From an uncultured Thiotrichaceae bacterium (lineage in GTDB: Bacteria > Pseudomonadota > Gammaproteobacteria > Thiotrichales > Thiotrichaceae), in assembly GCA_937931765.1 (NCBI GenBank), contig CALHAO010000227.1, forward strand, positions 1-45,234: a DNA stretch of 45,234 bases, read 5' to 3'. This document shows, in pieces, positions 2,227 to 42,922 of this stretch. Positions within the stretch are counted from its first letter, which is position 1. Each line of letters begins with the position of its first letter. The position numbers and the translations under genes are program-made. Under the pieces are notes generated by a model. The model searched no databases. It worked only from the letters and a program-made list of their open reading frames with translations, and had not been told where the DNA came from.

Positions 2227-2242
2227 TGTTAAGTTTTGTCAA
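2227..2242 (+). promoter_or_regulatory. Direct-repeat box TGTTAA-gttt-TGTCAA
   Basis: Lies between the divergent sulfotransferase pseudogene and methyltransferase; matches the window-wide motif. Confidence 0.6.
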
Positions 2243-2380
2243 TTCAGGTAGCAGTGTTGGCAAGCCGTCTTATATGATTAATCATCCGTTAAAAAGTTAT
2301 ATGGCAATGAAGCCCGGATTCTGTGGGTGTGCTTATCCGTCCTGTATGAACCCCGGAGTATTTGGACGGCCTGTGGGTGA

Positions 2381-3214
2381 ATGGTTTTGGCAGAACAAAT
2401 ACACGCGAAACACATCAGATGCATACTGGAAAACTGGTCTGCTATTTCGGCGGCGGTAATTCCCCCCCCCGATGATATTGCTTTTTATCAGCAAGCACTA
2501 TTGGCTGCCAATCTGCCTTCAGGTGCGACAGTTTTATTGTTGGATTCGACGTCTGAGCTGCGGGACATGGTGTTACGACAAGGTTTGAGGTTGATCAGGT
2601 GCAATATGGACGCCGTGTTCTGGGAAGCGATGCCCGGACTGATAGTGCCGGAAGGTGATGAGACATTTCTTAATCCCGATTGGTTGGAGGTGGCAGAAGG
2701 TCAGCGCTACGATCTTCTGCTGGGAGGCAGTTCTCTTGACATGTTGACGTGGGAAGATGTTCAAACTTTGATCAGTAAGACGCATCGCTTGTTAAAGAGT
2801 GGTGGTCGCGTTGTGTTGCGTGCAAAAACCGCGAATAAACAGTTAACGCTAAACTCCCTCCGACAGGCAATTGAAAATTATCCAACCGTAAGGTGTGATC
2901 ATTCATTCCTGACTTATCTGCACGATCTTATTGAGTCGTTGCGCAATACCTATTTCCCTGTAGTAACCCGGCGTGAGTTTTATGAGTCGGTTGTCTCGGA
3001 ACATTTGACGATAGAGGAAATGACGGAGGTGCGTTCATTGCTGCGCGACAGAAAGCATTGTTATCCGACACGCACTGTATTCATTGATTTGCTGCAGCAG
3101 CATTTCGAGATTTTGCTGTGCCAGCCCAGCGCTGCCAGTTGCTGGGGAACGGCGCATCTTTATATGTTGAAAAAGAAGAGCTTGGAAGAGAGTCAATTGA
3201 AGGTTGCATATTAA
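2381..3214 (+). CDS. Class I SAM-dependent methyltransferase-like protein
   Basis: VLLLDSTSELRD (degenerate motif I), RYDLLLG, RLLKSGGRVVL. Confidence 0.55.
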   Translation: MVLAEQIHAKHIRCILENWSAISAAVIPPPDDIAFYQQALLAANLPSGATVLLLDSTSELRDMVLRQGLRLIRCNMDAVFWEAMPGLIVPEGDETFLNPDWLEVAEGQRYDLLLGGSSLDMLTWEDVQTLISKTHRLLKSGGRVVLRAKTANKQLTLNSLRQAIENYPTVRCDHSFLTYLHDLIESLRNTYFPVVTRREFYESVVSEHLTIEEMTEVRSLLRDRKHCYPTRTVFIDLLQQHFEILLCQPSAASCWGTAHLYMLKKKSLEESQLKVAY

Positions 3215-3269
3215 GTCATTCATGGATGGTTACAGGCAATGATTTTTTTGCGGACTTTTTTCGCTAATG

Positions 3270-3950
3270 CTATAACTTGCCTGCTATTCTCATCATTCGC
3301 AGCGCAGCACAAGCCGCACCAAAGCCATTATCAATATTCACCACAGTCAATCCCTGCGTACAGCTCACCAGCATCGCCGATAACGCTGTCTTACCCTGAT
3401 CAGCTGCGCCATAACCGGTAGACGTTGGCACACCAATAATGGCCGATGGTACCAACCCGCCCAGCACAGTCGGCAAGGCAGCATCCATCCCCGCCACCGC
3501 AATGACTATCGGGTATTGCGCGATTTCGTCGATCCGTTCCAGCAACCGCCAGATACCAGCCACCCCAACATCACTAATCACGGTACATGGCTGGCCATAA
3601 TAGCGCAGGGTTTCAGCGGCTTCAGCGACAATGGGGGCATCAGAGGAACCCGCCGATACAATGGCGATATTGGGTGGTGTATGTGTTTGTAGCGGGGAAC
3701 CTGCAATAGCGGTACGGGCTTCAGCGTTATAGTCCAGTTGTTCCTGTAATTCCGGGGCCAGGCGACTAAATTTTTCCGGATCTAGCCGGGTAAACAAGCG
3801 GTTTTTCCCAGCTTCAGCGTTCATGTGAATAATGGCAGCGATTTGTTCAGGTGTTTTTTGAGCGCAGAGGACGGCTTCATCAAAGCCAATGCGTTGCTCG
3901 CGTTCGTAGTCAAGGATAATGGCGTGAGAAATAGCAGGCGATTTGCTCAT
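3270..3950 (-). CDS. larB: Nickel-pincer cofactor biosynthesis carboxylase/hydrolase LarB
   Basis: LDYEREQRIGFDEAV, AGSSD, DVGVAG, AGMDAALP, VPTSTGYG, VVNIDNGFGAA. Confidence 0.93.
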   Translation of the reverse strand: MSKSPAISHAIILDYEREQRIGFDEAVLCAQKTPEQIAAIIHMNAEAGKNRLFTRLDPEKFSRLAPELQEQLDYNAEARTAIAGSPLQTHTPPNIAIVSAGSSDAPIVAEAAETLRYYGQPCTVISDVGVAGIWRLLERIDEIAQYPIVIAVAGMDAALPTVLGGLVPSAIIGVPTSTGYGAADQGKTALSAMLVSCTQGLTVVNIDNGFGAACAALRMMRIAGKL

Positions 3951-4771
3951 ATCGTCTCCTCATGTGTTGCTTCATGTGCTGCTACCTTGTCATGTACAAA
4001 AGCACTGCCGCGTGTATAGGGTTCTATTTCCGGCAATAGTTGTGACTCACTTTGTAGTAGTGGGTGAATTTTTGCCTGCAATGCCTGGTATTGCTCTTCG
4101 TCCATCTGTTGCAGTGTCTCTGTATCAATCTGGATCTGGTAGCCTTCAGGTATACGACGACAACGGATCGGTATATCGCCCAGGGCATTACGCAGCGTGG
4201 CCTCAACCCGGTCGATCAGGTGTAATTCCTTAGCGACTATTTTGATGCCGGTGGTAACCCGGCTGGACAGGCAGGGTGCGGCACTCAGTTCTGCAATTTC
4301 ACCCAGGCCCAGTTCACGCGCCGCAACCCGAATATCCGCCTTACTCATCTGCGCTTCCACGTAAGGGTGGCGTACCTGCTGTTCGCGGGCGGCAATCAGG
4401 CCGGGGCGGTAATCATCCAGGTCATCCAGATTGGTGCCAGAAAAAATGGGTAAGTCACTGTTGCGGGCGATCTGGGCGTAGAGGTTGCTTTTGCAGTAAA
4501 AGCAGCGGTTCACCGGATTATTCAGGTAGTCGGGATCAGTAAACTCACCGGCATCAATAATGTGAAGTGGCCAGTTTCGTTCCTGTGCAAATCGGCGAAC
4601 CCGTTCCGTCGCTGCTTCAGGAACAGCAGGTGATAAAGCATGGAACACCTGCGTATCCGGGCAGGTTTCTACCGCGATACAGGCCAGGGTCAGGCTATCA
4701 ATACCGCCGCTGACGGCAATCGCAGCCGCGCCGGTTTGCTGTAAAATATCGCGCAGTGCCTGCTGATTCAT
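3947..4771 (-). CDS. larE: ATP-dependent sulfur transferase LarE
   Basis: PP-loop SGGIDS, NPVNRCFYCK, GTNLDDLDDYRPG, PCLSSR. Confidence 0.92.
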   Translation of the reverse strand: MNQQALRDILQQTGAAAIAVSGGIDSLTLACIAVETCPDTQVFHALSPAVPEAATERVRRFAQERNWPLHIIDAGEFTDPDYLNNPVNRCFYCKSNLYAQIARNSDLPIFSGTNLDDLDDYRPGLIAAREQQVRHPYVEAQMSKADIRVAARELGLGEIAELSAAPCLSSRVTTGIKIVAKELHLIDRVEATLRNALGDIPIRCRRIPEGYQIQIDTETLQQMDEEQYQALQAKIHPLLQSESQLLPEIEPYTRGSAFVHDKVAAHEATHEETI

Positions 4772-5994
4772 GACTTTTGCTCCCTGATATGTTTTTGCAA
4801 TGCGGTGTTTGCCAGTTCATGTGCTTGTGCTGTCCTTGGGGCGTGTTGCTGCTGTAGTTTTGCCAGGTCATCCATATCTACTTTGGCGGTGTAACCGGAC
4901 GGGCGTTGTGCAATTTTGATACGTGTCCCATCGTCAAACTGGACTTCCCGGCGCGGTAAAATACTGCGGGCGCAGCGGTAGTGACGCACACCCAGTGTCG
5001 TGGTTTGCTCATAACAGGCATTGATAATATTTTGCTCCTGAGCGGGTTGACCGAGTATACGAATACTCTGTGCCAGGCGATTTTTTTTGGTGGTCACTGC
5101 GGTTGCCAATACATCCAGCACAGCGGGGAGTTCACGCAGATATTGCAGACCTACTGCAAGGTCTTCCGGGGTCTGGTCATCAACTTCAAACTCGAATACG
5201 CTGATTTCGTCATGCTGTGACTGTGGCAGCAGCGTAAAGAGCATGGCCCGCAAAATGTTGGGAAGGCCGGGTAGGGTGGCAGTACCGAAGCCAACGCCTG
5301 ACCCTGTTAATGTCATACCGGTTACGGGGCCACCAACAGCGGGTTGCAGGTGATTTAGGATGGCAGCACCGGTGGGGGTTACCCGCTCACCGGGGATACC
5401 ATCATCGAACAAAGGTAAACCCCTTAACAGCAATAGAGTCGCCGGAGCGGGCACAGGCAATGTACCGTGCTGGCAGTTAATCCGCCCGGAACCCATTGGA
5501 ATAGTGCTGACTGAGAAACTTGGATTACCCAGCGCCTCAATTAGATAAGCTGCCAGGGTTATGTCTGCAATAGAGTCGAGTGCGCCGACTTCATGAAAAG
5601 CCACATCCTCAACCAGCATGCCGTGTACCTGTGCTTCGGCCTGCGCCAGCCGGGTGAATATATCGATCGCACGCTGTTGCACTGGTTCTGTCAGGGCCGA
5701 GTTCAGCAGTAATTTACGGATGTCGCTAAAATGATGGTGCTGGTGGGTATGGCTATGCGTGTGAGCATGACCGTCCTGTTCCTGAGTGGATTCACTCAGT
5801 TCTGTCACCTGTACACGGGAGCCGGTCAGAATGCCATTATTGTGATCAGAGCGGCTGACGCTGACTTTATGCTCAAGGCCAATGGCCCGCAGGCAGTGCG
5901 GGAGCTGTTGTTCCAGTTCGGGTTGTGCATCCAGTAGGGCAGCGATAAACATATCCCCTGAAAGACCACCAACCGGGTCGAGATGCAAGTGCAT
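4768..5994 (-). CDS. larC: Nickel insertase LarC
   Basis: GLSGDMFIAALLD, His-rich HAHTHSHTHQHHH, FHEVGALDSIAD, HGTLPVPAPAT, ERVTPTGAAI, TTTLGVR. Confidence 0.93.
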   Translation of the reverse strand: MHLHLDPVGGLSGDMFIAALLDAQPELEQQLPHCLRAIGLEHKVSVSRSDHNNGILTGSRVQVTELSESTQEQDGHAHTHSHTHQHHHFSDIRKLLLNSALTEPVQQRAIDIFTRLAQAEAQVHGMLVEDVAFHEVGALDSIADITLAAYLIEALGNPSFSVSTIPMGSGRINCQHGTLPVPAPATLLLLRGLPLFDDGIPGERVTPTGAAILNHLQPAVGGPVTGMTLTGSGVGFGTATLPGLPNILRAMLFTLLPQSQHDEISVFEFEVDDQTPEDLAVGLQYLRELPAVLDVLATAVTTKKNRLAQSIRILGQPAQEQNIINACYEQTTTLGVRHYRCARSILPRREVQFDDGTRIKIAQRPSGYTAKVDMDDLAKLQQQHAPRTAQAHELANTALQKHIREQKS

Positions 5995-7094
5995 TAGTAT
6001 TTGTCCTTATGGGCTATTTGGGGCTGGTCGATGCGTAATTCATCATAGGCATCCTGCCTCTGATGTCGATCCAATGCCGTAGTGGCAAGCATATCACAGG
6101 TAGTACCCCCGCCAAGGCGTGCCATGTGGTGGAAGACCGCGAAGCCTGTGGCAACGGTGGCAATCGTGAAGGCCCAGAGACCATGACTGAGTTGGAAGGG
6201 CTTTTCCGGAATCAATGCCAGTGCCAGGACGTATTGGCAAATAATGCTCAGGTACAGAAAGCCGACGACAAACTGTCGCGAGCGGTTGCGAATGAACCAG
6301 GCACCCACTGGCGCGCCAATTACTACTACCGGCACACATACATACCAGAATTCCCAGGCCGCCGGTGCCATACCGGTAGTTATTCCCTCGCGCCAGAATA
6401 CGGCGACGATGGAATTGGTTGCCATCAGTACGACCGATGTGGGAGTGGCGATCTTCTCGTTGACCCGGAAGGTGAGCACCAAAAAGGCGAAGGTGATAAT
6501 ATCCAGGCCGCTGCCGGTAATGCCACTGACGATTCCGCCAAGAAAGCCGCCAGTAAATAACAGGGCTGCTGAGCGAGCACCAAAATTTGCGATGCGAGAC
6601 TGAGGTTCGTAGGTTCGATTGCAATTAATCCAGTACAGCGCACCGGCAAAGCTGAGCCACACGCTGACAAAGAAAAGCTTTGTGTAGGCAGGCGTCAGCA
6701 GCGGTGAGATGATATCCAGTCCCAGCACTACGCCAAAGGCACCGCCAATTCCTGCCATGCACACAGCGCGCCACTCCACCGGAATCCGCAGGGCGATAAT
6801 CGTAAAGGAGGCAGCGGTCATGCCCACCGCCTGGATCAACAGCGAGAAATCCCGTGCCACCGGCGGCGGGATCTCGAACAGCAGCGTCATTACCGGAAAC
6901 GCGACGGCACCGCCGCCCTCACTGGTGGCACCCGCGATGAAGGAGCCAAAGACCATAGTTACGGACATGAACCAACGATCCGCAAACAGGTGCCAGTGGT
7001 CGCCAGCGACCATTAGGGTCAGCCAGATCGTCCAGACGATAGTGGCCGCAACTGGAATGGGGTAGCGGGCGATGAGAGAGAATTTCTGAAACAT
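5994..7094 (-). CDS. TauE/SafE-family membrane transporter
   Basis: Multi-TM; GSFIAGATSEGGGAVAFP and GITGSGLD..ATPTSVVLMA half-repeats; stop codon overlaps the larC start. Confidence 0.75.
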   Translation of the reverse strand: MFQKFSLIARYPIPVAATIVWTIWLTLMVAGDHWHLFADRWFMSVTMVFGSFIAGATSEGGGAVAFPVMTLLFEIPPPVARDFSLLIQAVGMTAASFTIIALRIPVEWRAVCMAGIGGAFGVVLGLDIISPLLTPAYTKLFFVSVWLSFAGALYWINCNRTYEPQSRIANFGARSAALLFTGGFLGGIVSGITGSGLDIITFAFLVLTFRVNEKIATPTSVVLMATNSIVAVFWREGITTGMAPAAWEFWYVCVPVVVIGAPVGAWFIRNRSRQFVVGFLYLSIICQYVLALALIPEKPFQLSHGLWAFTIATVATGFAVFHHMARLGGGTTCDMLATTALDRHQRQDAYDELRIDQPQIAHKDKY

Positions 7095-7100
7095 TGACGG

Positions 7101-7874
7101 CTATAGCCCAAATGCCATAGATCGGAGCACGAGTTCCGGAATGAACACACTCTCAGGTTGCAATAGCATGAAGGCGGTGGCATCGGCCACCTCCTCCGGG
7201 GTCAGCATCGCACTGCGCCCGGTGCTGTCTGCAACACCGTCCCAGATGGGAGTGTCGACGGCACCGAGATACAAGCCGAAGACCCGAATGCCATTGCCGC
7301 GTTGCTCCTCTGTGACGCTCTCGGCGATGGCGTGCATACCATGTTTGCTCGCGCAATATGGCCCCCAGTTCGGGTAGCTCGTCTTCGCCACGATTGAGTT
7401 GATGTTCAGGATTGTGCCGTGTTGGCGCGCAATCATACCCGGCAGCGTCCGGGCGGTGAGAATGGCCGGGCTGGTAAGGTTAAGATCGATAGTTCGGCGA
7501 ATGTCCTCAGTCGTGGACTCGTGCAAAGGGCAGATGCGCCCCGTGATCCCGGCGTTGTTTATCAGCACATCGATATGTCCGCAGGCTTTTTCAATAGCGG
7601 GGATCAGCGTGTCGCAGCTCGCCGGATCGCTCAGGTCGGCCACTTCTATTCGTGCGGGCGGGGCATGTGGTGCTTGCACACCGATTTCATCCACGAGCGT
7701 TTGCAGCAGGCGCTCGCTACGGGCAACGAGCACTAAAGCGCAGCCTTCTTGGGCGAGGCGCAGGGCGATGGCACGACCAATGCCCTTGCTCGCTCCGGTA
7801 ACTACGACGACACGCCCCTTCAGGTTGGTAATTGGTTGAGCAGCGTTCGCTGTCGGTTTAGCAACATTCGACAT
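7101..7874 (-). CDS. Short-chain dehydrogenase/reductase
   Basis: TGASKGIG, NNAG, YCASK. Confidence 0.92.
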   Translation of the reverse strand: MSNVAKPTANAAQPITNLKGRVVVVTGASKGIGRAIALRLAQEGCALVLVARSERLLQTLVDEIGVQAPHAPPARIEVADLSDPASCDTLIPAIEKACGHIDVLINNAGITGRICPLHESTTEDIRRTIDLNLTSPAILTARTLPGMIARQHGTILNINSIVAKTSYPNWGPYCASKHGMHAIAESVTEEQRGNGIRVFGLYLGAVDTPIWDGVADSTGRSAMLTPEEVADATAFMLLQPESVFIPELVLRSMAFGL

Positions 7875-7980
7875 GGTATTGATCTCCGGTATAGAGGGCC
7901 AGTGCTAAACACTGACCCTTAACAGCGTGAGGTAACAGAAACAGGCCGTAGTACCCCACTTAATCAATCAACGCAGCGCG

Positions 7981-8439
7981 TCAATCATCAAGTGGGGTAC
8001 TGCGGTCATGCACCAGGGCACGATAGACCAGCAACCAGCCTTCGGCAGTCCGTTGCCAGCGGTCGTTATAGACACCGGTCATTTTGACTCGCGGTTGCGG
8101 TTCATCGGCAGGTTGTACCGTTGACAACAGCATGGTGGAGGTCTCAGCGCTCTCGTCCGTGAGGGCATGAAAGAGTGTTCCGCTCTGATGGTGGCGTGAG
8201 CGCTGGCCCGGCTTCAGACTACGGCACCAGTCGCCGACCCAGGCCCGGATGCCCGCCCGGTCAACCAGGCGAAGCTCGGGTTCCACAGCACCTGTGGCAT
8301 AAACCTCGAACACGCCATCCTCACTGAAGATTGCCGCGAAGGCATCTACGTCGCCGCCATCTAAGGTATGAGAATAGCGGGCGATTTGCTCCAGGATTTC
8401 GAGCCTCGACTCCAGGCTCATGCTTTGCGCGCCTTCCAC
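7981..8439 (-). CDS. NTF2/SnoaL-like protein
   Basis: ARYSHTLDGGD..FSEDG..RHH..GVYNDRWQRTAEGW; the true start is probably MSLE at 8421. Confidence 0.8.
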   Translation of the reverse strand: MEGAQSMSLESRLEILEQIARYSHTLDGGDVDAFAAIFSEDGVFEVYATGAVEPELRLVDRAGIRAWVGDWCRSLKPGQRSRHHQSGTLFHALTDESAETSTMLLSTVQPADEPQPRVKMTGVYNDRWQRTAEGWLLVYRALVHDRSTPLDD

Positions 8440-9884
8440 GCATTCACGGCATCTTCTACCACAGTGCCAACGAAAAAGTCCGGGTTCATCGCGGTGTGCA
8501 GATCAACGGTGTTGCCGAAGACAAATTCTTCGAACTCTGTTGAGCTGAGCATCTCGTGTTCCACGAGTTCGTGAGCTTCTTCCAGTACCCGGTTCATATG
8601 CACTACGTCAAAGTGACCGAAATCTGAGCTGAACAAAGCCTTCAGGCGATGGTTGTCGTGCTTGTCGAAGGCCCAAACAGTACTGAGGTCATCGGATTCG
8701 CAGCCGAAAAATAGTTGATTCGAGAATTGGGAACGTAACTCATCTTCAGACTTAATAGGGTTAGCCACAAAGTCATCAAGGTTGCCCTGATCAATATCAC
8801 GTTGAGCGGCTTCTGCTGGTGATAAGAAAGGCGCGGCCATGCTGGTACAGCTAAGCAGCTCTTCGAGCTTATCTTCGTAGCGCTTACCACCATACTGCTT
8901 CATCAGCTCAGCCAGCTTCTCCATGTCGAGATTCGTCGGCAGGGTATTCTGCATCAGTGCCTCAGGTGTCCGCTTTTCCCAATGCTCAATCAGATCAATA
9001 AGCAAAGTACAAGCCCAGCCAACACCACCCTCAAGCATCGCAAACTTCAGTGTTGGGAAGCGGTGCAGCACACCACTTAAGACCAGTCCTTTAGTGAAAG
9101 CGTGGGATGCGGCGGCGAAATGGCCGACGTGATTGTAGATGAAATTGCCCGAGCGCCGGTCGCTCCAGCCAATACTGTCGGCATGGGTGGTGACCGCAAT
9201 ACGATGTTCAACAAACTTGGCCCATAGCGGGTCGTAGTCGTACTCGCTCTCCAGCAACAGATTGTCGATGTAGTGCTCGGCACGGGCCGGGTCAACGCCT
9301 GCTTCCACATGGGCGGGGATAGGGCGGCGTATGTGGTTGTTGATCATAGCAACCTTGAAACCAAGCTCGCCTACGGCGTAGTCGAGTTCGGCGATTGCCT
9401 CATCCGGTGTGACAAGTGGGATTACTGCTGCTGGTGTCAGCCGCGTTTTATAAGCATCGAAAGCATCACGGTTCAGATTATTTAATGCCCGACAGGCTGC
9501 CTGACGTATTTCGGCGTCAGGGTGGGCGATAAAGTCGAAGCCGAGGGTTGAGTAAATAATGCTGAAGTCAACACCAAATTCGTCCAGACGATGGTGCAGC
9601 AGCCCCGGAATCATGGAAGTGGCGCGATCCATTGTGTGAGTGGTTTCACCCCACCACCAGGGCCGGGGCATCCGGCGTGCGAGCCGCTCTTCCGGACTCA
9701 GGTCATACCAGATATTCTGTTTTGCATCACGAATTACCTGATCACGCATGTCGGTGCCACCGACTTCGCGGAGATAATCGAGGAATAACGGGATCGGTTC
9801 AATCCAATGGCCGTCGGCATCGACCACCGGATGCCCGAGGTTGGCCCGGATGTCTGCTGATTTGGAAGTGGTTGAGTCATTCAT
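8418..9884 (-). CDS. Amidohydrolase family 2 (metal-dependent hydrolase/decarboxylase)
   Basis: VVDADGHWIE, RFPTLKFAMLEGGVGW, LFSSDFGHFD. Confidence 0.82.
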   Translation of the reverse strand: MNDSTTSKSADIRANLGHPVVDADGHWIEPIPLFLDYLREVGGTDMRDQVIRDAKQNIWYDLSPEERLARRMPRPWWWGETTHTMDRATSMIPGLLHHRLDEFGVDFSIIYSTLGFDFIAHPDAEIRQAACRALNNLNRDAFDAYKTRLTPAAVIPLVTPDEAIAELDYAVGELGFKVAMINNHIRRPIPAHVEAGVDPARAEHYIDNLLLESEYDYDPLWAKFVEHRIAVTTHADSIGWSDRRSGNFIYNHVGHFAAASHAFTKGLVLSGVLHRFPTLKFAMLEGGVGWACTLLIDLIEHWEKRTPEALMQNTLPTNLDMEKLAELMKQYGGKRYEDKLEELLSCTSMAAPFLSPAEAAQRDIDQGNLDDFVANPIKSEDELRSQFSNQLFFGCESDDLSTVWAFDKHDNHRLKALFSSDFGHFDVVHMNRVLEEAHELVEHEMLSSTEFEEFVFGNTVDLHTAMNPDFFVGTVVEDAVNAWKARKA

Positions 9885-13166: not shown

Positions 13167-13203
13167 GACAGCTCCTTATTGGGCAAGTGGATAACATTCT
13201 GAT

Positions 13204-14574: not shown

Positions 14575-14585
14575 AGTCCTGCCCC

Positions 14586-26857: not shown

Positions 26858-26865
26858 TTTATCAA

Positions 26866-29963: not shown

Positions 29964-29998
29964 TATGATAGGCTCCGACGAACCTCATCACATTAGAT

Positions 29999-30480: not shown

Positions 30481-31165
30481 AATAACCATCTAAGTAAACA
30501 ATTGAACCGGAGAGTGTTGTAGCTACTGATAATTGAAAGCCATCCATTAATTTGTTATCAAATTGCCAGTTTTTTTTCTGAGAAACAGTATGTATCTCTG
30601 TGTTTGTTATCTGCCACTTTTTATGGGTATCTTCAATAAATGAAAATGACTGTAGTGGAAGTGAAAAACCCAACCCAAGTGCTTTGATATAAGCCTCTTT
30701 CAACGTCCAGTAAGTAAAAAAGCGCCGTTCCCTTTGCGCAGAATCACTGATTGATAATATATCATCAGCCTCACGAGAAGAGAATGCATACCGACATAAA
30801 GCTTCAAAATCCTGTAGCGCTTTGTGCCGTTCAACATCAACACCAACGGCGGCGGCACTACTGACAGCACAGGTAATTAACCCGTGTGTGTGTGACAAGT
30901 TGAAATGCAACCATTCGTATCCTGGGTTGTTAATAAATGGCTTACCGTATGGATTGGTATTAAAACACCATTCATCTGGTGAGAGCGGTGCATATGTGCT
31001 CAGCAATTTGCGTAAAAAAATATGGGCTGCAGTATAAAGAGTCTGATCTTTATTAAACTTGAATTTTTTAGCACGACTACGCTCAGCTTCATTTAATAGT
31101 GATATATCCGTTGCCTGAACGGTGTCAGGTTGGATGGTGTGAACATAAACGCTGGTGTTATGCAT
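30473..31165 (-). CDS. Sfp-type 4'-phosphopantetheinyl transferase
   Basis: YGKP, FNLSHT, VGVDVE, WTLKEAYIKALG. Confidence 0.92.
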   Translation of the reverse strand: MHNTSVYVHTIQPDTVQATDISLLNEAERSRAKKFKFNKDQTLYTAAHIFLRKLLSTYAPLSPDEWCFNTNPYGKPFINNPGYEWLHFNLSHTHGLITCAVSSAAAVGVDVERHKALQDFEALCRYAFSSREADDILSISDSAQRERRFFTYWTLKEAYIKALGLGFSLPLQSFSFIEDTHKKWQITNTEIHTVSQKKNWQFDNKLMDGFQLSVATTLSGSIVYLDGYYE

Positions 31166-31446
31166 GTTGGGTCATACAAGTGACAGTCTTAAGTGGCCAA
31201 TAATGTTCTGACGGGTGTTGCTTAGGAAAAAATGATCTGCCGTGTAGCTGACGTGACCAAGGTTCTTCACGGTTTGGAGCAGCCAGAGTACTCCTACATA
31301 AGCTGTTGTTAAACAAATTTCAGGATCTATTGCATTTAAATATGTCTTAATAGTTTAGACCAATGCTCCAACAGCTTTTAGTTTAGGCTGAAGCTATCTA
31401 TAAGATTCTCCTAATCCAGCGGATGATGTGGAAATTCTGAATACTA

Positions 31447-33087: not shown

Positions 33088-33366
33088 AACTTAACCAGCA
33101 TGTAGCCGTGCTGCACGTATAAGTGAGAATACGGGGTACACAAACGTGTTACCCATCTTTTAACGGTTGGTAAGAGTAATGTCATTAGCACAGATTTTAG
33201 CATGATTCTGTTATGTAGAATCATGCAGCAGTTCTTGATCATCCGACAAGAATGAATGGCTATCTTCAAATCAGAATCCAGCTATGAGTTGGTTTGAGCA
33301 TTTAACTCCCTTCAAGGCAAGGAAAACCTGAAGGTTAAGTGAGTTGACATAGCTTTGTAAGCCAGC

Positions 33367-33382
33367 TTAACAATTCTTGACA
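33367..33382 (-). promoter_or_regulatory. Direct-repeat box TGTCAA-gaat-TGTTAA
   Basis: Perfect consensus match upstream of the ABC exporter. Confidence 0.7.
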
Positions 33383-33420
33383 TTTTTTCGGAGTGTAGGG
33401 TGTTTTAAATGCCTGTTTAT

Positions 33421-35412: not shown

Positions 35413-35524
35413 ACCTAATTTCCGAATTTATTAAAATAATCGGGGTTATTACTCATCAAAGTACTATCTCATGGTAATTAATCAATAAAAGGTACCTCTA
35501 AATACCTTCTGATAGATAGGTAAC

Positions 35525-35540
35525 TTCACAATTCTTCACC
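35525..35540 (-). promoter_or_regulatory. Weak box GGTGAA-gaat-TGTGAA
   Basis: Same 10-bp period and gaat spacer, upstream of the ATPase; several mismatches. Confidence 0.3.
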
Positions 35541-35544
35541 TAAT

Positions 35545-36912
35545 CTAGCTGTCTGGTGAGCGTGCTTTTGTCCATATAAGCCATGCTGTAGCACCTGTTA
35601 ATAAAAAAAGTAATGCCCATGCCAGCCAAATACCCCTGAAATTACCTAGCCAGTTCTGTTGTGTTACTTTTGGTTTTGTAGGTACAAGTGCAAGGTAAGC
35701 ATGTAATTGTGCTGGTTTGTCTGTCTGTGTCTTAGCAGGTGATGCATACATATAAAGACTATTACTAGCAGTTAAGTAAGTTAGTGATTGCAAAGTATCA
35801 GAATTAAATAATTCAAAATGATTGTTTGCAGTATCCAACATAAGTGCAGATACGGCTTGTGGGGTTGCTGGTGCCTCCTGACTAAAGACAGCAAGCTGGT
35901 TTAAACGTTGCCAGCGCACTGTGTCATGAGCATCTCGGCAATTGTCTGGTAGCGTAGCCAACAAGTGGCAACCGACAACAGCTACCTGTTGTTCAGCAGA
36001 CCAAGAACGATTAGCGTGCACCGGACTGTTCCACAAACGTATACGGCCATTTTTCCCTGCCGGATATTCCAGTACATGTACTGTTTTGCGATCTGCTAAC
36101 AACACATTACTGGCAAAAGAATAATAACGGTACTGTAAAAAATAAGTGGCTTCTGATATAGCTTGGTATTCCCGCAGCGCTTTTCGTAAATCAAATACAC
36201 TAGAATATGCATTGTCTATCTGGATATTGTTAGCCAAATAAGGTGAATAGGGTTCGGCATTTAATAATGTTAAAAAAAGCCCTTGCTGATTGAAGCCACT
36301 GAGTATTGACGTTAAACCGGCAAAACCAATGCTGACAACAGTAGTATCTGCATATTGATAAACTGTAATGGCTTGTAGACTGCGTAATTGATTACTAATT
36401 TTCCAGTCAAGATTACGAGCAACAACTGTACCATTAGCTGCTACCGAATCAAATACACCAAAGCCAGAACCACCAGGGGCAAGACCAAGATCTGGCAAGA
36501 AATTAAGTAACTGGTATTCGTCTAAAGAAAGTTTTCCATCACCGGGCGTACTTTCGTTGGCCATATCCCACGCACTAACTACACCGATCATTTCCTCTTT
36601 ATATTCTGGGTTCACTTTTTTTAATAAATTAGGCAGTGTTTTTTCTTTAACTTCTTTAAATTTTCGTGGGCTAAATAAACTATTTAAATGTGCATCATAA
36701 TGTTTTTCAATATTCGGAAATAGCTTCTTGCTTTGACTTCCCAGAGATAATCCTGCCTGCAGAGAAGATAGCTCATCAAGGCTGACACGGATCACTGGCA
36801 GTTTTACGTTGGTGGCATAGGCAGGAAAGCTTATAATTACTAACAGTATTCCAATAAATAGCCCTATAATGGGAGTCCCATATTTAAATATGGCGCATGT
36901 GCATTGTTTCAT
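35545..36912 (-). CDS. C45/Ntn-hydrolase-like exported protein with C-terminal TM anchor
   Basis: VVARNLDW, LSGFNQQGL, NVLLAD; PGGSGFGV where the Cys nucleophile is expected. Confidence 0.68.
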   Translation of the reverse strand: MKQCTCAIFKYGTPIIGLFIGILLVIISFPAYATNVKLPVIRVSLDELSSLQAGLSLGSQSKKLFPNIEKHYDAHLNSLFSPRKFKEVKEKTLPNLLKKVNPEYKEEMIGVVSAWDMANESTPGDGKLSLDEYQLLNFLPDLGLAPGGSGFGVFDSVAANGTVVARNLDWKISNQLRSLQAITVYQYADTTVVSIGFAGLTSILSGFNQQGLFLTLLNAEPYSPYLANNIQIDNAYSSVFDLRKALREYQAISEATYFLQYRYYSFASNVLLADRKTVHVLEYPAGKNGRIRLWNSPVHANRSWSAEQQVAVVGCHLLATLPDNCRDAHDTVRWQRLNQLAVFSQEAPATPQAVSALMLDTANNHFELFNSDTLQSLTYLTASNSLYMYASPAKTQTDKPAQLHAYLALVPTKPKVTQQNWLGNFRGIWLAWALLFLLTGATAWLIWTKARSPDS

Positions 36913-38813
36913 TCTGCGTATTTCTGTGTTTGTTTTTTTCTGCGGAACATAAGTAGAAATAGCATAATATGTGCCATCACTACGCTGTAGGTTATCGCTA
37001 TGGCGATACCCTTCATTTGGGTTACCATTTGTAGTAAATCGGGTGCACTAAATGTGTTTTCTGTACCAAATAATGCGACACTCACTGCCCCCCAGATACT
37101 GGCAAAGCCATGAATAGCAATCAGTTGTGCCACGATAACCTGTCCGTCCTTCCTTAAAAAAGTTTTACGCAATAAACTAAATGCCAGATTCTGCACTAAC
37201 CCTGCTACAGCACCTATCACCAGTGCTTCAACAAAGGTTACGCTTTGCGCGCAGGCAGCAATCGCCACCAATCCACTGATAAAACCACCATATAGCATTT
37301 GGGAGACATGATTTTTGTCAGTATTAAAAAAGTTACAATGCATAAACGCTATCAGGCTGCCCATGATGCCAGCTAAACTGACATTCAATAAAACAGTTGG
37401 CACCTGTTCATCAGTGATAGAGAGGTTGCCTGCTGAAAACCCCAGCCAGCTCATCCATAATAATAAAATAATAGGTGATGAATACAGCGAATATTTTAAC
37501 GGTTGTTCAGACGGTTGCGAAGGTGATGAACGTTCAAGCTTCAGCATCATTGTAAGGGCAAACCATGCGGCTACAGCGTGGATAATGATAGAGCCGGATT
37601 GATCAATAAAACCGATACCATCCAGCCATCCTTTGTTAGTAGGGACAAAGTGACTGGCCCAACCCCAATGTCCAAAGATTGGCATGATAACGGCACCAAT
37701 AGCAAAAGCCAAAAATAAATGCGCTAAACTAGATAGATATTTTGAAATAGCAGTATAAATAATCAAAGCTGCAAACATAATAAAACCACTTTTATACAGC
37801 AGCAGCTTAATGAAAGGTATATTAGCCATTATGTTTTCTGCGGTTTCTTTTTCCTGGTCGGGGTGAGTTATGGTCGCTTGCACGATCAGATAGCTTTCAC
37901 TACCCACTAAGCCTGCATAGGTTGTGCCATACGTTAGGCTAAAACCTATGGCGAAGTAGCCAAGAAATGAACCCATACAAACTAATAAGATCTCTTGATT
38001 TTGTTTTATATTGCTATTGGAGAAAGTATTATTATTAAAGTTATTGGAAAGGGCAAAAGCTAATGGAGCAAGAAACACCAGCACAGTAGCCAATAAGCGC
38101 CATAGTCGATTCAGATTTTCAGCAGTGATTGTTTCAATGCTCTGGCTTTTATCAGCATTCTGACTATCTTTTAATTCTCCAGAAAATCGTTTTACACTTT
38201 CCCTTATGCTACTAATGCGAATCAAAATTTCATAAAGACGAATTGAGTTATCTTCAATCAATGATTTTTGTGTATCCAAATCTGTTGCATTAGCACGAAT
38301 ATCACGGGTAGATTCAAGTAACTCTTCGTGAACTTTCTCAATATTGCTGGAATTAACATTGATGCTACTGCGACTTTCATCTAATCCGTTATAGGCGTTT
38401 TTTAACTTGTTTTCGATTAGTTCCAGTCCATCACGCACAGCTTGCATGCTACTATGATTGATGCTGGATTTTTCTTTACTGCTATCGATTTCTTTACTCA
38501 ACGATTCCAGGGTTTGTTGAATGATATCGAGGTCAGCAATACTGTTTTTGATTTCTGATTCAGCTTGTTGTTGCGGTGATAATTCCTCATCTTTATTAGA
38601 TGAAGTATTGGTTCCTTGCCCTGAATTTTCCCTGGTATTTCCCTGTGGTTCAGAAGTGGTTAGATTATCGTTCCCTGTTACTGGAGTAATTCCCTGTTCT
38701 GCTAAACTTGGGTTTGCAAGTATTAACAATAACACCAACAAAGATAGTCTGCTATTAGTGAATAAAGAGCTGAGTCCAAACGATGTTAACTTGAAACGTG
38801 GAAGAATCATCAT
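36909..38813 (-). CDS. Ammonium transporter (Amt)-like protein with N-terminal signal and long coiled coil
   Basis: GHWGW, GWLDGIGFIDQSGSIIIH, LLWMSWLGF, GFISGLVAIAA, IAIHG..IWG. Confidence 0.8.
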   Translation of the reverse strand: MMILPRFKLTSFGLSSLFTNSRLSLLVLLLILANPSLAEQGITPVTGNDNLTTSEPQGNTRENSGQGTNTSSNKDEELSPQQQAESEIKNSIADLDIIQQTLESLSKEIDSSKEKSSINHSSMQAVRDGLELIENKLKNAYNGLDESRSSINVNSSNIEKVHEELLESTRDIRANATDLDTQKSLIEDNSIRLYEILIRISSIRESVKRFSGELKDSQNADKSQSIETITAENLNRLWRLLATVLVFLAPLAFALSNNFNNNTFSNSNIKQNQEILLVCMGSFLGYFAIGFSLTYGTTYAGLVGSESYLIVQATITHPDQEKETAENIMANIPFIKLLLYKSGFIMFAALIIYTAISKYLSSLAHLFLAFAIGAVIMPIFGHWGWASHFVPTNKGWLDGIGFIDQSGSIIIHAVAAWFALTMMLKLERSSPSQPSEQPLKYSLYSSPIILLLWMSWLGFSAGNLSITDEQVPTVLLNVSLAGIMGSLIAFMHCNFFNTDKNHVSQMLYGGFISGLVAIAACAQSVTFVEALVIGAVAGLVQNLAFSLLRKTFLRKDGQVIVAQLIAIHGFASIWGAVSVALFGTENTFSAPDLLQMVTQMKGIAIAITYSVVMAHIMLFLLMFRRKKQTQKYAE

Positions 38814-38843
38814 AAGTTCATCCTAAAATAGTCACACGGTAAT

Positions 38844-39674
38844 TCATGGCTTTTCTTGCTTGGTTTGTAGCTTTTGGCCTTTACTGATTTTTTCACCCAA
38901 AGCTGCCAATGTGGTTGTACAGCTTGGTGTCTCTCCACTTGTGGCAATAGCTTTCTCCAGTTTATCCAGTAATTCACCATTGTTTCTGTGAACAGCCAAT
39001 GTCATTAATGGAGATATTTCTGCTTTTTCTACCTTAAAAGCAGTTAAACCTTCTTTGTCTAATTTTACATCTGTTACTCTAGCCTGAAAAAATGCACGAT
39101 CTGTCAACAAAGCATCAACACGTTGGCTGAGCAAATCGACAATGCCACTCTCCAAAACCAGATAAGGTTTTAGGCGGTTATTGCTGTCGTATTCCTCCAA
39201 TAGATGCAGATGTAATAAAGAGCCTTCCAGTGCCCCCAGTGTATTGCCCCGGAAGTCTTCAGGGGTGGTTTGTGGGTTATCAGTTTCACGCTGTATAAAA
39301 ACAATTTCTGGCAGGCATAAAGGTTTAGTGAGGCTTAGCTGATCAATCTCGGGTAGAACCAAAGAATCGATAATGGCCAAACCATTGATTTGTAAGGTCT
39401 GTACTTGATGTAATAATTGATCGAAGTCAGCAGTAACAAAATTACATTCTGCATCAATTTGTTGGCATAGCCGCGTAATACTTTCAACCATGACGCCCTG
39501 AGGCTGCTGTTCCTGGTCAAAAAAACTATAGGGCATGCGATTATCCTGAATTCCGATAAAAAGCTGTGTGTCGACAGGTGTTTTTTCCAAATTTTCCTGG
39601 GCATGACCTGAAAAGCTGAGCAACAAGCACCCAGAAATCACTATTAAATAAATACAGTGTTGCAGAAAACTCAC
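38844..39674 (-). CDS. Family 3 (polar amino acid) solute-binding protein
   Basis: Signal peptide, MPYSFFD, LCQQIDAECNFV, LGALEGS, DLLSQRVDALL. Confidence 0.78.
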   Translation of the reverse strand: MSFLQHCIYLIVISGCLLLSFSGHAQENLEKTPVDTQLFIGIQDNRMPYSFFDQEQQPQGVMVESITRLCQQIDAECNFVTADFDQLLHQVQTLQINGLAIIDSLVLPEIDQLSLTKPLCLPEIVFIQRETDNPQTTPEDFRGNTLGALEGSLLHLHLLEEYDSNNRLKPYLVLESGIVDLLSQRVDALLTDRAFFQARVTDVKLDKEGLTAFKVEKAEISPLMTLAVHRNNGELLDKLEKAIATSGETPSCTTTLAALGEKISKGQKLQTKQEKP

Positions 39675-41491
39675 AGCTGGGAGTCCTTTACATAATAATG
39701 ATCCGGGGACAATAGTAAAATGGGGTTATCAGGTAGACCTTGTGCCTGCAGATTTTGCAGGTTGACGCTAATTTCCGGAAGGTTTTTTAGGCGTGTTGCA
39801 AACTCATGTACTTTAAGGTTTTCGAGTAAGTCTCTATAAACCTGCATTTCCCCCATGCCGCGTAAACTAATATCAGAGCGTTTTTCCAGGATAATGCTAA
39901 GATTTTGATCGTTATTACGGTTCTCTAATGCAATAGCAGGTATTTTAAAAAACGCCAAACTTTCATTCAATTTAGATATTATCTTAGCATCAAGGCCGTG
40001 AAAAGGATGAGTAAATAATACATCAACATTCAATGAGAGTTTGCCATAACAAGATATTATTTCCCGAATAGCTTCTTCTGGTTCTAAAATCGATAAAGGA
40101 ACTCTGCATTCAACTACTTCAATTTTTTTCTTTTTTGCCACTTCTTGCAATAAATCATAGCTGGCAATAGTTCGCCCATTTTTAGTGTTTTCGTAAATAA
40201 TACCGATACGCTTAAAGCGTAGGATTTCATGAGCCAGATCTAACGAAAGAGTTTTATGATCATCATCATGCATTTTCTTGGCAAATTCTTTACTAAAATT
40301 GGTTGCTGAACTCGGTAATTGAGCTTGAAAGCGCTCTAACGTATAGGGAATATCGATAGCTGGCATAGAGTGCCAAGTACCATTCTGCCACACTTTGAAA
40401 TAATATTTTTTACCTAACATATCACCCGCTTTGGTAAACGCATGTATTCCAGTTATGCCGACCCAAGCTGGCATAAAATGTAGGTTTGATGATAGGAGTG
40501 ATGGTAGTGTGGAGCCAGCATTTTCAATAGCTGTTGCCAGGAGCATAAGGGAGTCGTACCCCTGTGCTGCATTGTAATCAGGCAACACACTATATTTTAA
40601 GCTATAACTTTCAATAAATTTTTTTCTACGCGGATTAGAGCCTTTCACAGGGAATACATCAGGCAGAATAGTGTTTTCTGCACTACCTCCTGCAATTTTC
40701 AAGTAGTTAGCAGAGTTTAACTGATCACTACCGAGTATTGGTTGATCAACACCCATCTCACGTAATTGTCGCACCATTCTTCCGGCGGGAACTGGAGGAG
40801 CGGCAATGAATATTGCATCAAAGGTACTATTATTAAACTCTGCAATAACGGGTCGATAGTTTTGTGAGCGTGAAAAAAAAGATTTACGGTTAATGACTTC
40901 AATATTTTCACTTAACGCAGCGTCTTCAGCCATAAATGCCTGCTCCCGGCTAAAATCATCACGGGTATACAAGATGACTATCTTGCGATACTCTAATGTT
41001 CTAGCCATGCTTGCTATTTGCTCCATCATTGTAGTGTTACCGGGAATCATTCGGTAGACATATTGAAAATAATAATTTGTCAATTTTTCACTGGTAGCAA
41101 ATGGTGTCATGAAAATAAGATGGCTGCGCTCATAAATCACTGACGCAGGAATAGCAACTTCTGAACTACGATGTCCTAGTACAGCAACCATTTTTGGGTT
41201 ATTAGCAATTCTCCGGATAGTCGATTTAGTGGATTGAAAGTCAGGCCCATCCTGCTCAATATGAATTTGTAAATTACGTCCCAGTAGCTTGTTAGGACGT
41301 TGGTTAATTTCTTCAGCGGCCAATAAAACGCCTTCGAGAAAAGCACTTTTATTAAGATCCTGAAGCGCTGTAATATGAATATCACCATGATTTTGGCGGG
41401 CTTGTGCCAGCCGTTTTTCTGCCATACCCTCATAATCAGGCGCGCATCCGCTCAACAAGAATATGACCATAATGAACAGTCGCAGCAGCAT
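39671..41491 (-). CDS. LivJ/K-like branched-chain amino acid binding lipoprotein with extra C-terminal domain
   Basis: Lipobox LSGC, LAAEEIN, AVLGHRSS, ILGSD, AAQGYDS, GITG. Confidence 0.8.
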   Translation of the reverse strand: MLLRLFIMVIFLLSGCAPDYEGMAEKRLAQARQNHGDIHITALQDLNKSAFLEGVLLAAEEINQRPNKLLGRNLQIHIEQDGPDFQSTKSTIRRIANNPKMVAVLGHRSSEVAIPASVIYERSHLIFMTPFATSEKLTNYYFQYVYRMIPGNTTMMEQIASMARTLEYRKIVILYTRDDFSREQAFMAEDAALSENIEVINRKSFFSRSQNYRPVIAEFNNSTFDAIFIAAPPVPAGRMVRQLREMGVDQPILGSDQLNSANYLKIAGGSAENTILPDVFPVKGSNPRRKKFIESYSLKYSVLPDYNAAQGYDSLMLLATAIENAGSTLPSLLSSNLHFMPAWVGITGIHAFTKAGDMLGKKYYFKVWQNGTWHSMPAIDIPYTLERFQAQLPSSATNFSKEFAKKMHDDDHKTLSLDLAHEILRFKRIGIIYENTKNGRTIASYDLLQEVAKKKKIEVVECRVPLSILEPEEAIREIISCYGKLSLNVDVLFTHPFHGLDAKIISKLNESLAFFKIPAIALENRNNDQNLSIILEKRSDISLRGMGEMQVYRDLLENLKVHEFATRLKNLPEISVNLQNLQAQGLPDNPILLLSPDHYYVKDSQL

Positions 41492-42474
41492 CAGGGATCT
41501 TTCCTTGCAGGTTGGGAGAGTGGCTGTTGGGTGTTATCTCCCGCTGTGTTTGATTCACTACTACCTGCGCCATCTTCATTAACTGGCTCTTGATTAGTAG
41601 TAGGCACTACTGGCTCATGGTCGGTGTTTAAAATAATGGGTAGTCCATTCTTACCACCACCAATAATAACAATTTTTGTATTCGGTGATTTTGCCAGTTC
41701 TTGTGTCGCTTCGATGCCTTTATGAGTCAGAATTGATTCTGTCAGGGACTCGTCAACGATTTGGTGATATTCCTTGATGCCTCCTGCTTCTACTTTTAAA
41801 CGCTCTGCCTCTTTCTGAGCTGTTTGTAGACGGAATTCATATGACTTCATGAACTCTTCTTGTCGTAATTTATCTTCAATAGCTATAACAAGTTCTTTTG
41901 GCAAAGTAATACTACGGATAATTATATCTTCTACTTCTACATAATTCCGGCCAACTTCTTCCAATGCAGCCAGAATAGCACTAGTCAATAATCCAGATTC
42001 GTTCGTATATATTTGTTCAGCAGTATAGCTTCCTAGCTCTTTACGCATTACTGATTCAATTTGAGGTAAAATCACACGTGTTAAATAATCAGGGCCAATG
42101 CTTTGGTGAAGTATCCCTAACAATTCATATTCTGGGCGATAACGAATAGCTAGTGACAAATGAACACTAAGGCCTTTATTGGAAATGACATCAAATTCGT
42201 GATAAGCAACCTGTTTGCGTATTTCGTAGATATAAACCTTATCCAAAGGACTAAATATATGAAGACCTTCTTCATATATCCGGTCAATTTCAGTGCCACT
42301 AAACCGTTTAAACAGAATAGCTGCTTGTCCAGACTCAATCGTTATAACAATACGCTGCCAAAAGAATACAAATATTATGGCAGAAATTAATGATAATATG
42401 ATCAGTAAGGGCGATTTTCGGCGTAACCATTGCTTTAATCTTTCACTTAAACTGGGGCTTTCAGTTGCTTCCAC
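41491..42474 (-). CDS. SPFH/prohibitin (band 7) protein
   Basis: N-terminal TM, EEGLH, IRYRP, IGPDY, YTAEQIY, AIEDK, EAERLKVEAGG. Confidence 0.88.
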   Translation of the reverse strand: MEATESPSLSERLKQWLRRKSPLLIILSLISAIIFVFFWQRIVITIESGQAAILFKRFSGTEIDRIYEEGLHIFSPLDKVYIYEIRKQVAYHEFDVISNKGLSVHLSLAIRYRPEYELLGILHQSIGPDYLTRVILPQIESVMRKELGSYTAEQIYTNESGLLTSAILAALEEVGRNYVEVEDIIIRSITLPKELVIAIEDKLRQEEFMKSYEFRLQTAQKEAERLKVEAGGIKEYHQIVDESLTESILTHKGIEATQELAKSPNTKIVIIGGGKNGLPIILNTDHEPVVPTTNQEPVNEDGAGSSESNTAGDNTQQPLSQPARKDP

Positions 42475-42528
42475 TGTGACAACCTATCTGGATTTATCAA
42501 TGATTACCAAATACAAGGCTTTCTCCAC

Positions 42529-42561
42529 AAAAAAACCGCCTGAGCTTCGCCACAAGCGGTT
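42529..42561 (-). terminator. Probable intrinsic terminator after the small membrane protein gene
   Basis: aaccgc...gcggtt stem followed by a T run on the minus strand. Confidence 0.55.
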
Positions 42562-42585
42562 AAATTTACTGGATAACCAGGGGAT

Positions 42586-42810
42586 TCAGGCAGCAACAGC
42601 TTCTTCGACAGCCGGTGCATTTTTCTTTCTGAATATTTTGTTTGCAGTCAAATAAACTCCAACACCTAGGAGAGCGCCTCCAGCTACCGCCATGCCCATA
42701 GGATGCGCCAAAACAAAAGCTTTAGTGGCTGTGCCTACGTTAGCGAGAGAGCTGCCGACAGAAGACAAAGAACCATTTGAAGTTGCTGCAGTGACTACTT
42801 CCGTTTCCAT
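42586..42810 (-). CDS. Small Ala/Gly-rich membrane protein, copy 2
   Basis: 74 aa, AGGAG RBS, HPMGMAVAGGALLGVGVY plus basic tail. Confidence 0.8.
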   Translation of the reverse strand: METEVVTAATSNGSLSSVGSSLANVGTATKAFVLAHPMGMAVAGGALLGVGVYLTANKIFRKKNAPAVEEAVAA

Positions 42811-42906
42811 GAATTACTCCTTTTAACACTATTAATTAGTAGCTTATATTATCAGGTGATGTTGAAAATCAAGTCAAGAATATTGCGGCTGAATTGGCAT
42901 CATTAC

Positions 42907-42922
42907 TGTCAATTTTTGTCAA
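42907..42922 (+). promoter_or_regulatory. Direct-repeat box TGTCAA-tttt-TGTCAA
   Basis: In a divergent promoter; positional homolog of the 22217 box. Confidence 0.7.

What the first reader, a model, noticed from the sequence alone, without database searches (positions are those of the whole stretch)
2227..42922. Shared direct-repeat operator TGTYAA-N4-TGTYAA links all three segments into one putative regulon
Seen, all upstream of genes and with a 10-bp period: 2227 TGTTAAgtttTGTCAA; 17589 and 17635 TGTTAActttTGTCAC; 22217 TGTTAAgtttTGTTAA; 23490 TGTCAAgaaaTGTTAC; 26530(-) TGTTAAgaatTATTAA; 29102 TGTCAAgaaaTGTTGC; 33382(-) TGTCAAgaatTGTTAA; 42907 TGTCAAttttTGTCAA; and a weak copy at 35540(-). 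Known: OmpR/PhoB-family regulators bind tandem repeats with a 10-11 bp period. Inference: the GC-richer biosynthetic operon and the AT-rich DUF697 locus are co-regulated despite different composition.
Basis: partly seen in the sequence, partly recalled or inferred. Interest (0 to 1): 0.82.

Follow-up and report, generated by a model that had tools for sequence, protein, structure and literature searches.

The report
Shared activator box for biosynthetic islands
A short 10-base tandem DNA repeat sits in front of the genes of this island and of matching islands in related filamentous sulfur bacteria, and it is likely the landing site of the island's own switch protein, which would turn on both a conserved export toolkit and whatever foreign biosynthetic genes have joined it.

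Summary
The motif is real and probably a regulon. All ten listed sequences are present (9 matches at <=1 mismatch vs 1.3 expected). A matrix built only from relatives recovers 9 of the 10 sites, all intergenic. The unit is a 10-bp tandem repeat (WWWTGTTAAK)x2; TGTYAA is the local variant. Among 106 family genomes, 15 of 16 with an orthologue of the 25687 OmpR-family regulator carry >=2 strict sites, against 1 of 90 without. Sites lie at fixed, helically phased distances upstream of -10-like hexamers in both orientations (31 of 92 held-out sites at one offset pair, shuffled maximum 17), which points to an activator, not an operator. The right half (22328-45234) is a conserved family chassis; the GC-rich operon is foreign cargo with its own duplicated site pair. 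The regulator here has Ser in place of the phosphoacceptor Asp, and the HPt partner seen in 15 of 16 relatives was not found. Binding and co-expression are untested. Textbook mechanism; regulon not found in my literature searches.

The parts
2227..2242 (+). Tandem-repeat site (20.5 bits); -10-like TATGAT 30 nt downstream (towards 2381) and TATGAT 21 nt away on the reverse strand (towards a broken sulfotransferase-like gene)
17589..17604 (+). Site (13.4 bits); reverse-strand -10-like TAAAGT 33 nt away, predicted to drive the 14-kb GC-rich operon 17456->3270
17635..17650 (+). Identical site from a 46-bp local duplication (14.9 bits); -10-like TATTCT 30 nt downstream, predicted to drive the 2OG-Fe oxygenase gene
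22217..22232 (+). Site (28.6 bits) upstream of DUF697 gene 22328; aligned with the invariant site of orthologous promoters
23490..23505 (+). Site (20.9 bits) upstream of coiled-coil DUF697 gene; AATAAT at offset 30
26515..26530 (-). Site (20.6 bits) in reverse orientation, 21 nt upstream of a perfect TATAAT for the small GxxxG gene (about 26588-26857, +)
29102..29117 (+). Bidirectional site (18.0 bits): CATAAT at offset 29 (gene 29151+) and TAGATT at reverse offset 21 (TAXI-DUF697 gene); site and both -10 cores conserved in 6 orthologous promoters
33367..33382 (-). Site (25.9 bits) with TAACCT at offset 29, upstream of the peptide-export ABC transporter, PPTase and DUF697 genes
35525..35540 (-). 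Weak copy (7.4 bits, 3 mismatches); doubtful
42907..42922 (+).
25687..26412 (+). OmpR-family regulator (receiver + winged helix), Ser64 (codon AGT) at the phosphoacceptor Asp position; likely binder
22328..45234 (.). Conserved chassis (40.4% GC): DUF697 paralogues, P1B-type ATPase and fragment, ABC exporter, PPTase, C45 hydrolase, Amt fusion, solute-binding proteins, SPFH, PotD-like
3270..21399 (.). GC-rich cargo (54.4% GC): FMO, amidinotransferase, P450, PRMT-like methyltransferase, P1B-type ATPase, amidohydrolase, SnoaL, SDR, TauE, larCEB; divergent 2OG-Fe oxygenase

Best explanation
The repeat is a 10-bp tandem site found upstream of island genes, and it is likely bound by the OmpR-family protein encoded at 25687, which would act as a transcriptional activator of a specialised-metabolite regulon. 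A head-to-tail dimer would sit on the two half-sites and recruit sigma70 RNA polymerase from a few fixed positions: forward, 29-30 or 38-40 nt before the -10 box (about -57..-42 for the first class); reverse, 21, 32-33 or 54 nt before it (about -49..-34 for the first class). One site can therefore serve two divergent promoters. The conserved chassis (export, DUF697 and P-type ATPase genes) and foreign biosynthetic cargo that has gained a site would be switched on together. In relatives the regulator is predicted to be phosphorylated through a 7TMR-DISM hybrid kinase and an HPt-like protein; here it lacks the Asp and would be active without phosphorylation or be controlled by abundance or a ligand. 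Shown: sites, enrichment, spacing, conservation, co-occurrence, Asp-to-Ser. Inferred: binding, activation, co-expression, the signal.
For: Enrichment and intergenic location. Co-occurrence: >=2 strict sites TGTTAAKWWWTGTTAM in 15 of 16 other genomes with the orthologue (E<1e-49) vs 1 of 90 without (Fisher p 4e-16, overstated because kin are not independent); for the 82 genomes not seen when the pattern was made, 9 of 10 vs 1 of 72; carriers and non-carriers occur in each of five genera. Sites cluster on the regulator's contig or island. Geometry found on 68 sites and repeated on held-out loci: 31 of 92 non-redundant sites have a -10-like hexamer at offset 29/30, shuffled best pair mean 12.2, max 17 of 300. 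Footprints: site and -10 cores invariant while spacers diverge; the 22217 and 42907 promoters differ from orthologues by a 10-bp gap, one helical turn. The regulator is the only OmpR-family gene of this clade found in G000; the next is 33% identical. Salmonella PhoP also activates from a few phased positions in both orientations (PMC3335776, passages).
Against: No binding, TSS or expression data. Regulator and sites travel in the same island, so co-occurrence cannot exclude another binder. G089 (64% complete) has the orthologue and 0 strict sites; G097 has 2 strict sites and no orthologue. About half of held-out sites show none of the three first-defined -10 classes (48 of 99 do; random-offset null mean 16.9, max 43 of 2000). 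In the window 22217 and 42907 have only borderline forward -10 boxes and 35540 fails. Only 2 of 19 regulator copies have a strong site within 700 bp upstream, and the two weak ones here are polymorphic between strains.
Confidence: 0.78

Rival explanations
1. The sites are real but are bound by another regulator (a chromosomal paralogue or an unassembled Asp-bearing copy); the Ser64 protein is a modulator or heterodimer partner.
For: G000 is 82% complete. Several relatives hold two copies of the regulator. Members of the paralogous group have a single similar site upstream (G067, G072, G073:C5). Two 7TMR-DISM hybrid kinases remain on contig C423. Pseudo-receiver heterodimers are known (PMC12632262, passages).
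Against: Genomes with only the paralogue have 0-1 strict sites, apart from G097 with 2. No paralogue and no close HPt was found in G000. No other DNA-binding family recurs among the commonest gene clusters of the fetched islands.
Confidence: 0.12
2. The regulon is a decaying relic in this lineage: the regulator lost its Asp and relay, and the sites are drifting.
For: C at the Y position in 8 of 18 window half-sites vs 5 of 310 in relatives; broken genes nearby (DUF697 remnant near 23100, sulfotransferase); HPt missing.
Against: The regulator frame is intact with a branch length like its Asp-bearing sisters (0.39 vs 0.28-0.42); the lineage-specific cargo has sites with correct geometry; the 30093 frameshift is absent in three other runs; Asp was lost at least twice in this clade.
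Confidence: 0.06
3. The protein binds the sites as a repressor (true operator).
For: The reverse class at offset 21 overlaps the upstream edge of the -35 region; ArcA, with the same TGTTA core, is a repressor (PMC4173790, passages).
Against: The -10-like peaks lie 21-54 nt away at helical intervals rather than under the site; a repressor has no need of fixed phasing.
Confidence: 0.03
4. Chance AT-rich matches or duplicated promoter DNA with no shared regulator.
For: 17589/17635 and 22217/42907 are duplicated regions.
Against: Shuffle controls, spacer specificity, absence from coding DNA, and conservation in other genera with diverged flanks.
Confidence: 0.01

Closest known systems
E. coli ArcA box (ATGTTAAAAA-1-ATGTTAAAAA; PMC4173790, passages read)
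   Same: OmpR/PhoB family, TGTTA core in direct repeats, extra repeats possible
   Different: ArcA period is 11 bp, here strictly 10 bp (0 exact N5 matches in the window); ArcA is a global repressor, this is island-restricted with activator geometry; the protein scores 87.6 bits vs cut-off 334 on the ArcA model
Salmonella PhoP regulon promoter architectures (PMC3335776, passages read)
   Same: A few fixed, helically phased box-to-(-10) distances, both orientations, horizontally acquired genes recruited
   Different: Different box and distances (PhoP 12/23 nt forward, 27-58 nt reverse; here 29-30/38-40 forward, 21/32-33/54 reverse); PhoP is a core regulator
10-bp-period OmpR-family boxes: CpxR (GTAAA-N5-GTAAA), RstA, cyanobacterial RpaB HLR1 (recalled, not from a call)
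   Same: 10-bp period and GT(T/A)A-type half-site
   Different: The protein is far below the curated cut-offs of these families (CpxR 96.7/341, RstA 88.3/330, RpaB 116/330 bits); target genes unrelated
Cluster-situated atypical response regulators such as JadR1; ChxR and HP1043 (PMC12632262 passages; listings and abstract starts)
   Same: OmpR-family receiver without the phosphoacceptor Asp; control of a biosynthetic cluster (JadR1) or phosphorylation-independent activation through a direct repeat (ChxR)
   Different: Here most orthologues keep the Asp and a kinase-HPt relay, so the loss is recent and repeated; no ligand evidence
Ferrosome (fez) gene clusters (bioRxiv 10.1101/2020.01.10.902569, passages read)
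   Same: P1B-type ATPases together with small hydrophobic GxxxG proteins
   Different: The D[Y/F]SCA motif of FezB is absent from all 32 ATPases printed; context is biosynthetic enzymes, not iron genes

Membership tests
OmpR/PhoB-family regulator | Receiver domain plus Trans_reg_C winged helix | tested here: met
   Pfam PF00072 and PF00486; model pLDDT 86, best folds RpaA, KdpE, DrrB
OmpR/PhoB-family binding site | Head-to-tail half-sites with 10-11 bp period | tested here: met
   10-bp period, up to 4 units in relatives
OmpR/PhoB-family binding site | Direct binding by the named regulator | not testable with these tools
   Needs EMSA, footprint or ChIP/DAP-seq
Canonical phosphorylated response regulator | Phosphoacceptor Asp at end of beta3 | tested here: not met
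   Ser64, codon AGT; no difference listed at that codon in 4 runs covering it
Canonical phosphorylated response regulator | Cognate kinase/HPt partner | tested here: inconclusive
   Dedicated HPt not found in G000 (best E 6.6e-7; 0 at 1e-10), present in 15 of 16 other carriers; genome 82% complete; kinases on C423
Aspartate-less/atypical response regulator | Activity independent of phosphorylation | not testable with these tools
   Sequence criterion met; activity untested
ArcA regulon | 11-bp period and ArcA orthologue | tested here: not met
Activator-dependent sigma70 promoter | Site at fixed, phased distance upstream of a -10 box | tested here: met
   (prediction from sequence; no TSS data)
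Regulon | Co-expression of target genes dependent on the regulator | not testable with these tools
   No RNA holder listed
Ferrosome FezB (P1B-6) | D[Y/F]SCA transmembrane motif | tested here: not met

The most novel reading that the evidence does not exclude
This is a family-specific plug-in platform for natural products: a fixed chassis (regulator, DUF697/GxxxG membrane proteins, SPFH scaffold, exporters) captures unrelated foreign biosynthetic cassettes by giving each a copy of one activator box and a dedicated P1B-like ATPase that lacks the metal-binding motif and may move organic products or build a membrane compartment; in this lineage the regulator has been cut loose from its phosphorelay and runs on its own. 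The box would then be a search tag for hidden biosynthetic cassettes across these bacteria.
Probability: 0.2. Interest if true: 0.8.

Novelty: new member of a known kind. Interest (0 to 1): 0.5.

Why it matters
It defines, from sequence alone, a regulon, its likely activator and its promoter rules in a family of filamentous sulfur bacteria for which my searches found no such work. The box marks biosynthetic cassettes even when they are scattered over contigs, offers a handle to switch them on in a laboratory host, gives DUF697 proteins and motif-less P1B-type ATPases a functional context, and shows a recent, repeated change from a phosphorelay-controlled to an aspartate-less regulator that can be tested with natural pairs.

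Tried and rejected
Genome-contig scan with the regulator gave only distant receivers. Metagenome scan gave 2 relevant loci of 8; L111 keeps kinase-regulator(Asp)-HPt. No orthologue at E<=1e-42 in the other 299 scored genomes of a class-wide sample. No RNA holder listed, so expression could not be examined. Genomic context of the five other aspartate-less proteins could not be obtained, so the link between Asp loss and HPt loss rests on G000 alone. Atlas look-ups for DUF697 and the ATPase returned no result. Earlier scan findings: nothing. Rejected: 1572 as a site (-8.1 bits); a global-regulator reading (4 matrix hits >=14 bits in 3.13 Mb); direct autoregulation in G000 (weak, polymorphic sites at 25327 and 25454). 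The reversed-pattern control is not a valid null because the 10-bp repeat matches it in another register. No laid contig spans the cargo-chassis junction near the IS630 end (21772-21908) in one piece; adjacent contigs tile it. Literature: 0 papers; 7 listed of 8, none relevant by listing; 1; listings only, apart from five papers read as passages; no supplements seen.
Full report
Observation. Four are exact matches to TGTYAA-N4-TGTYAA, four have one mismatch, 29102 has two and 35540 has three. The window holds 9 matches at <=1 mismatch against 1.30 expected (max 6 in 100 shuffles). Exact matches number 4 in this 45-kb contig and 3 in the other 3,133,765 bp of the assembly, and in the window no other spacer from 0 to 12 gives an exact match. 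The signal is therefore local to this island, not genome-wide.

What the window is. The right half (22328-45234, 40.4% GC) encodes several DUF697 proteins, an OmpR-family regulator (25687), a P1B-type ATPase and a fragment of one, a peptide-export ABC transporter, a PPTase, a C45 hydrolase, an Amt fusion, solute-binding proteins, an SPFH protein and a PotD-like protein. Most of these genes were found in 8-16 of 17 other genomes' fetched stretches, mostly at 31-77% identity; the TAXI-DUF697 fusion in 5. The left part (3270-21399, 54.4% GC) is a biosynthetic operon: FMO, amidinotransferase, P450, PRMT-like methyltransferase, a second P1B-type ATPase, amidohydrolase, SnoaL, SDR, TauE and larCEB, with a divergent 2OG-Fe oxygenase. 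Fifteen of the 18 left-part genes had no hit in the fetched stretches (these are not whole genomes). The amidinotransferase was searched genome-wide: 4 of 106 family genomes have a 31-33% relative, while named 65-69% relatives are in cyanobacteria, Thiomargarita and others, so the operon is likely foreign. One relative's regulator is filed under Leucothrix arctica, which places the family among the Thiothrix/Leucothrix filamentous sulfur bacteria (classification recalled).

The motif in relatives. A matrix trained on 56 sites from six relatives, without window sequence, gives the consensus WWW-TGTTAA-(G/T)WWW-TGTTAM-G, a 10-bp unit repeated. In the rest of G000 only four sites reach 14 bits (C43, C125, C185, C479); three of those contigs carry a paralogous P1B-type ATPase, two have a family-5 solute-binding gene next to the site, and C43 has a sulfotransferase, a haem-oxygenase-like and a 2OG-Fe enzyme.

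Link to the regulator. Seventeen of 107 family genomes, G000 included, have a regulator at E<1e-49 (the cut-off was chosen after seeing the list, at the step down to a paralogous group that forms its own 100/100 clade). A strict pattern occurs at least twice in 15 of the 16 others and in 1 of the 90 without; for the 82 genomes first seen after the pattern was fixed, 9 of 10 against 1 of 72. Exceptions: G089 (64% complete, none) and G097 (two sites beside an ATPase and a kinase, no orthologue). Kin are not independent, but carriers and non-carriers occur in each of five genera. Sites precede the same gene families again and again: DUF697 (13 genomes), P1B-type ATPase or fragment (11), DUF481 (10), the small GxxxG gene (8). 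Other site-bearing genes differ by genome: a PAL plus two-module PKS cluster in G001, G016 and G024, NRPS and AMP-binding enzymes, sulfotransferase-methyltransferase with ATP sulfurylase, TauD, aminotransferases, enolase-family and Rieske enzymes. This is a fixed chassis with variable biosynthetic cargo.

Activator geometry. In 68 sites, TAnnnT peaked 29 nt (20 sites) and 30 nt (8) downstream, at 39 nt (10), and 21 nt away on the reverse strand (11), over a background of mostly 0-4. On held-out loci from further genomes, 31 of 92 non-redundant sites have a -10-like hexamer at 29/30 (shuffled best pair: mean 12.2, max 17 of 300), with reverse peaks at 21 (10), 32/33 (12 and 9) and, over all 137 sites, 54 (14) (the -10 weights are recalled). 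Against this, only 48 of 99 held-out sites fit one of the first three classes (random-offset null mean 16.9, max 43). In the 29102 promoter and six orthologues the site, the forward -10 core TAAT and the reverse -10 core are conserved while spacers diverge. In the DUF697/SPFH promoter the window's two copies have the forward -10 exactly 10 bp closer than five orthologues. For the cargo, 17635 has TATTCT at forward 30 and 17589 has TAAAGT at reverse 33, so the duplicated pair fits one site per divergent promoter. PhoP shows the same logic of a few phased positions in two orientations (PMC3335776, passages). Fixed phasing upstream of the -10 box is what an activator needs and a repressor does not (established knowledge), hence activator rather than operator.

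The regulator is atypical here. It has Ser64 where the 19 island-type copies and 3 paralogues read from relatives' genomes for the tree have Asp (two partial copies, G089 and one of G106, were left out). No difference is listed at that codon in four runs of four studies that cover it (one study may be the source of the assembly). Six of 41 family rows lack the Asp (2 Ser, 4 Gly), needing at least two losses within one 100/98 clade. In relatives a small HPt-like gene (invariant His; 9 of 11 match Pfam Hpt weakly) usually follows the regulator and 7TMR-DISM hybrid kinases lie nearby; a sister from the same clade keeps kinase-regulator-HPt (L111). The HPt profile hits 15 of 16 other carriers at E<=3e-22 (11 are in the profile) but G000 only at 6.6e-7; G000 is 82% complete and still has two such kinases on C423. 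Aspartate-less receivers make up about 2% of OmpR-type proteins (PMC4395418, passage), and some are controlled by pathway products (JadR1; PMC12632262, passage). The window's sites also drift towards C at the Y position (8 of 18 half-sites vs 5 of 310).

Verdict. The mechanism is of a well-known kind; the particular system (box, chassis, relay, Asp loss) was not found in eight literature searches, which cover open-licence PMC and bioRxiv only. What the pathways make and what signal is sensed remain open; chemical defence or surface competition by an attached filamentous bacterium is my inference.

Noticed in passing
window 9877-12099 and 33421-35412; G000 contigs C43, C177, C185, C479; 32 copies printed: P1B-type ATPases keep DKTGT but none of those printed has a CPC/SCP/PCP/DYSCA transmembrane motif; the residues there vary between paralogues, and many cargo cassettes carry their own copy. 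Substrate may not be a metal.
   Followed up: partly
window 3270-7094: Nickel-pincer cofactor genes larB, larE, larC with a TauE-family transporter but no larA in the window; the cofactor's client enzyme in this operon is unknown.
   Followed up: no
window 12099-15734: Amidinotransferase next to a eukaryote-type arginine N-methyltransferase-like gene, P450 and FMO: suggests an N-methylated guanidino metabolite without NRPS/PKS.
   Followed up: partly
window about 29990-30480 (-): A further DUF697 gene, frameshifted in the window at 30093; runs X2, X3 and X5 lack the extra base.
   Followed up: yes
window about 22990-23310 (+) and 2127 to about 1440 (-): A broken DUF697 remnant and a broken sulfotransferase-like gene downstream of the reverse promoter of site 2227.
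   Followed up: partly
window 21326-21908: IS630 remnant at the cargo-chassis junction, polymorphic between strains.
   Followed up: partly
L024-L025 (G001:C8 41881-65583), L031-L032, L036-L037: Conserved cluster of TauD oxygenase, aromatic amino-acid lyase, CoA-ligase-PKS and PKS ending in an aminotransferase class I/II domain, under the same box in three genomes; product unknown.
   Followed up: partly
window 42840-42885 and 22150-22195: Second conserved element (AAGTCAA, a -35-like TTGACT on the reverse strand with a -10-like box 17-18 nt on) for the SPFH operon; retained at 22150 where the SPFH gene is gone.
   Followed up: partly
L045 489-1505, L069 11001-12008: MreB/actin-like genes next to sites in G019 and G104, of interest if the chassis builds a membrane compartment.
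   Followed up: no
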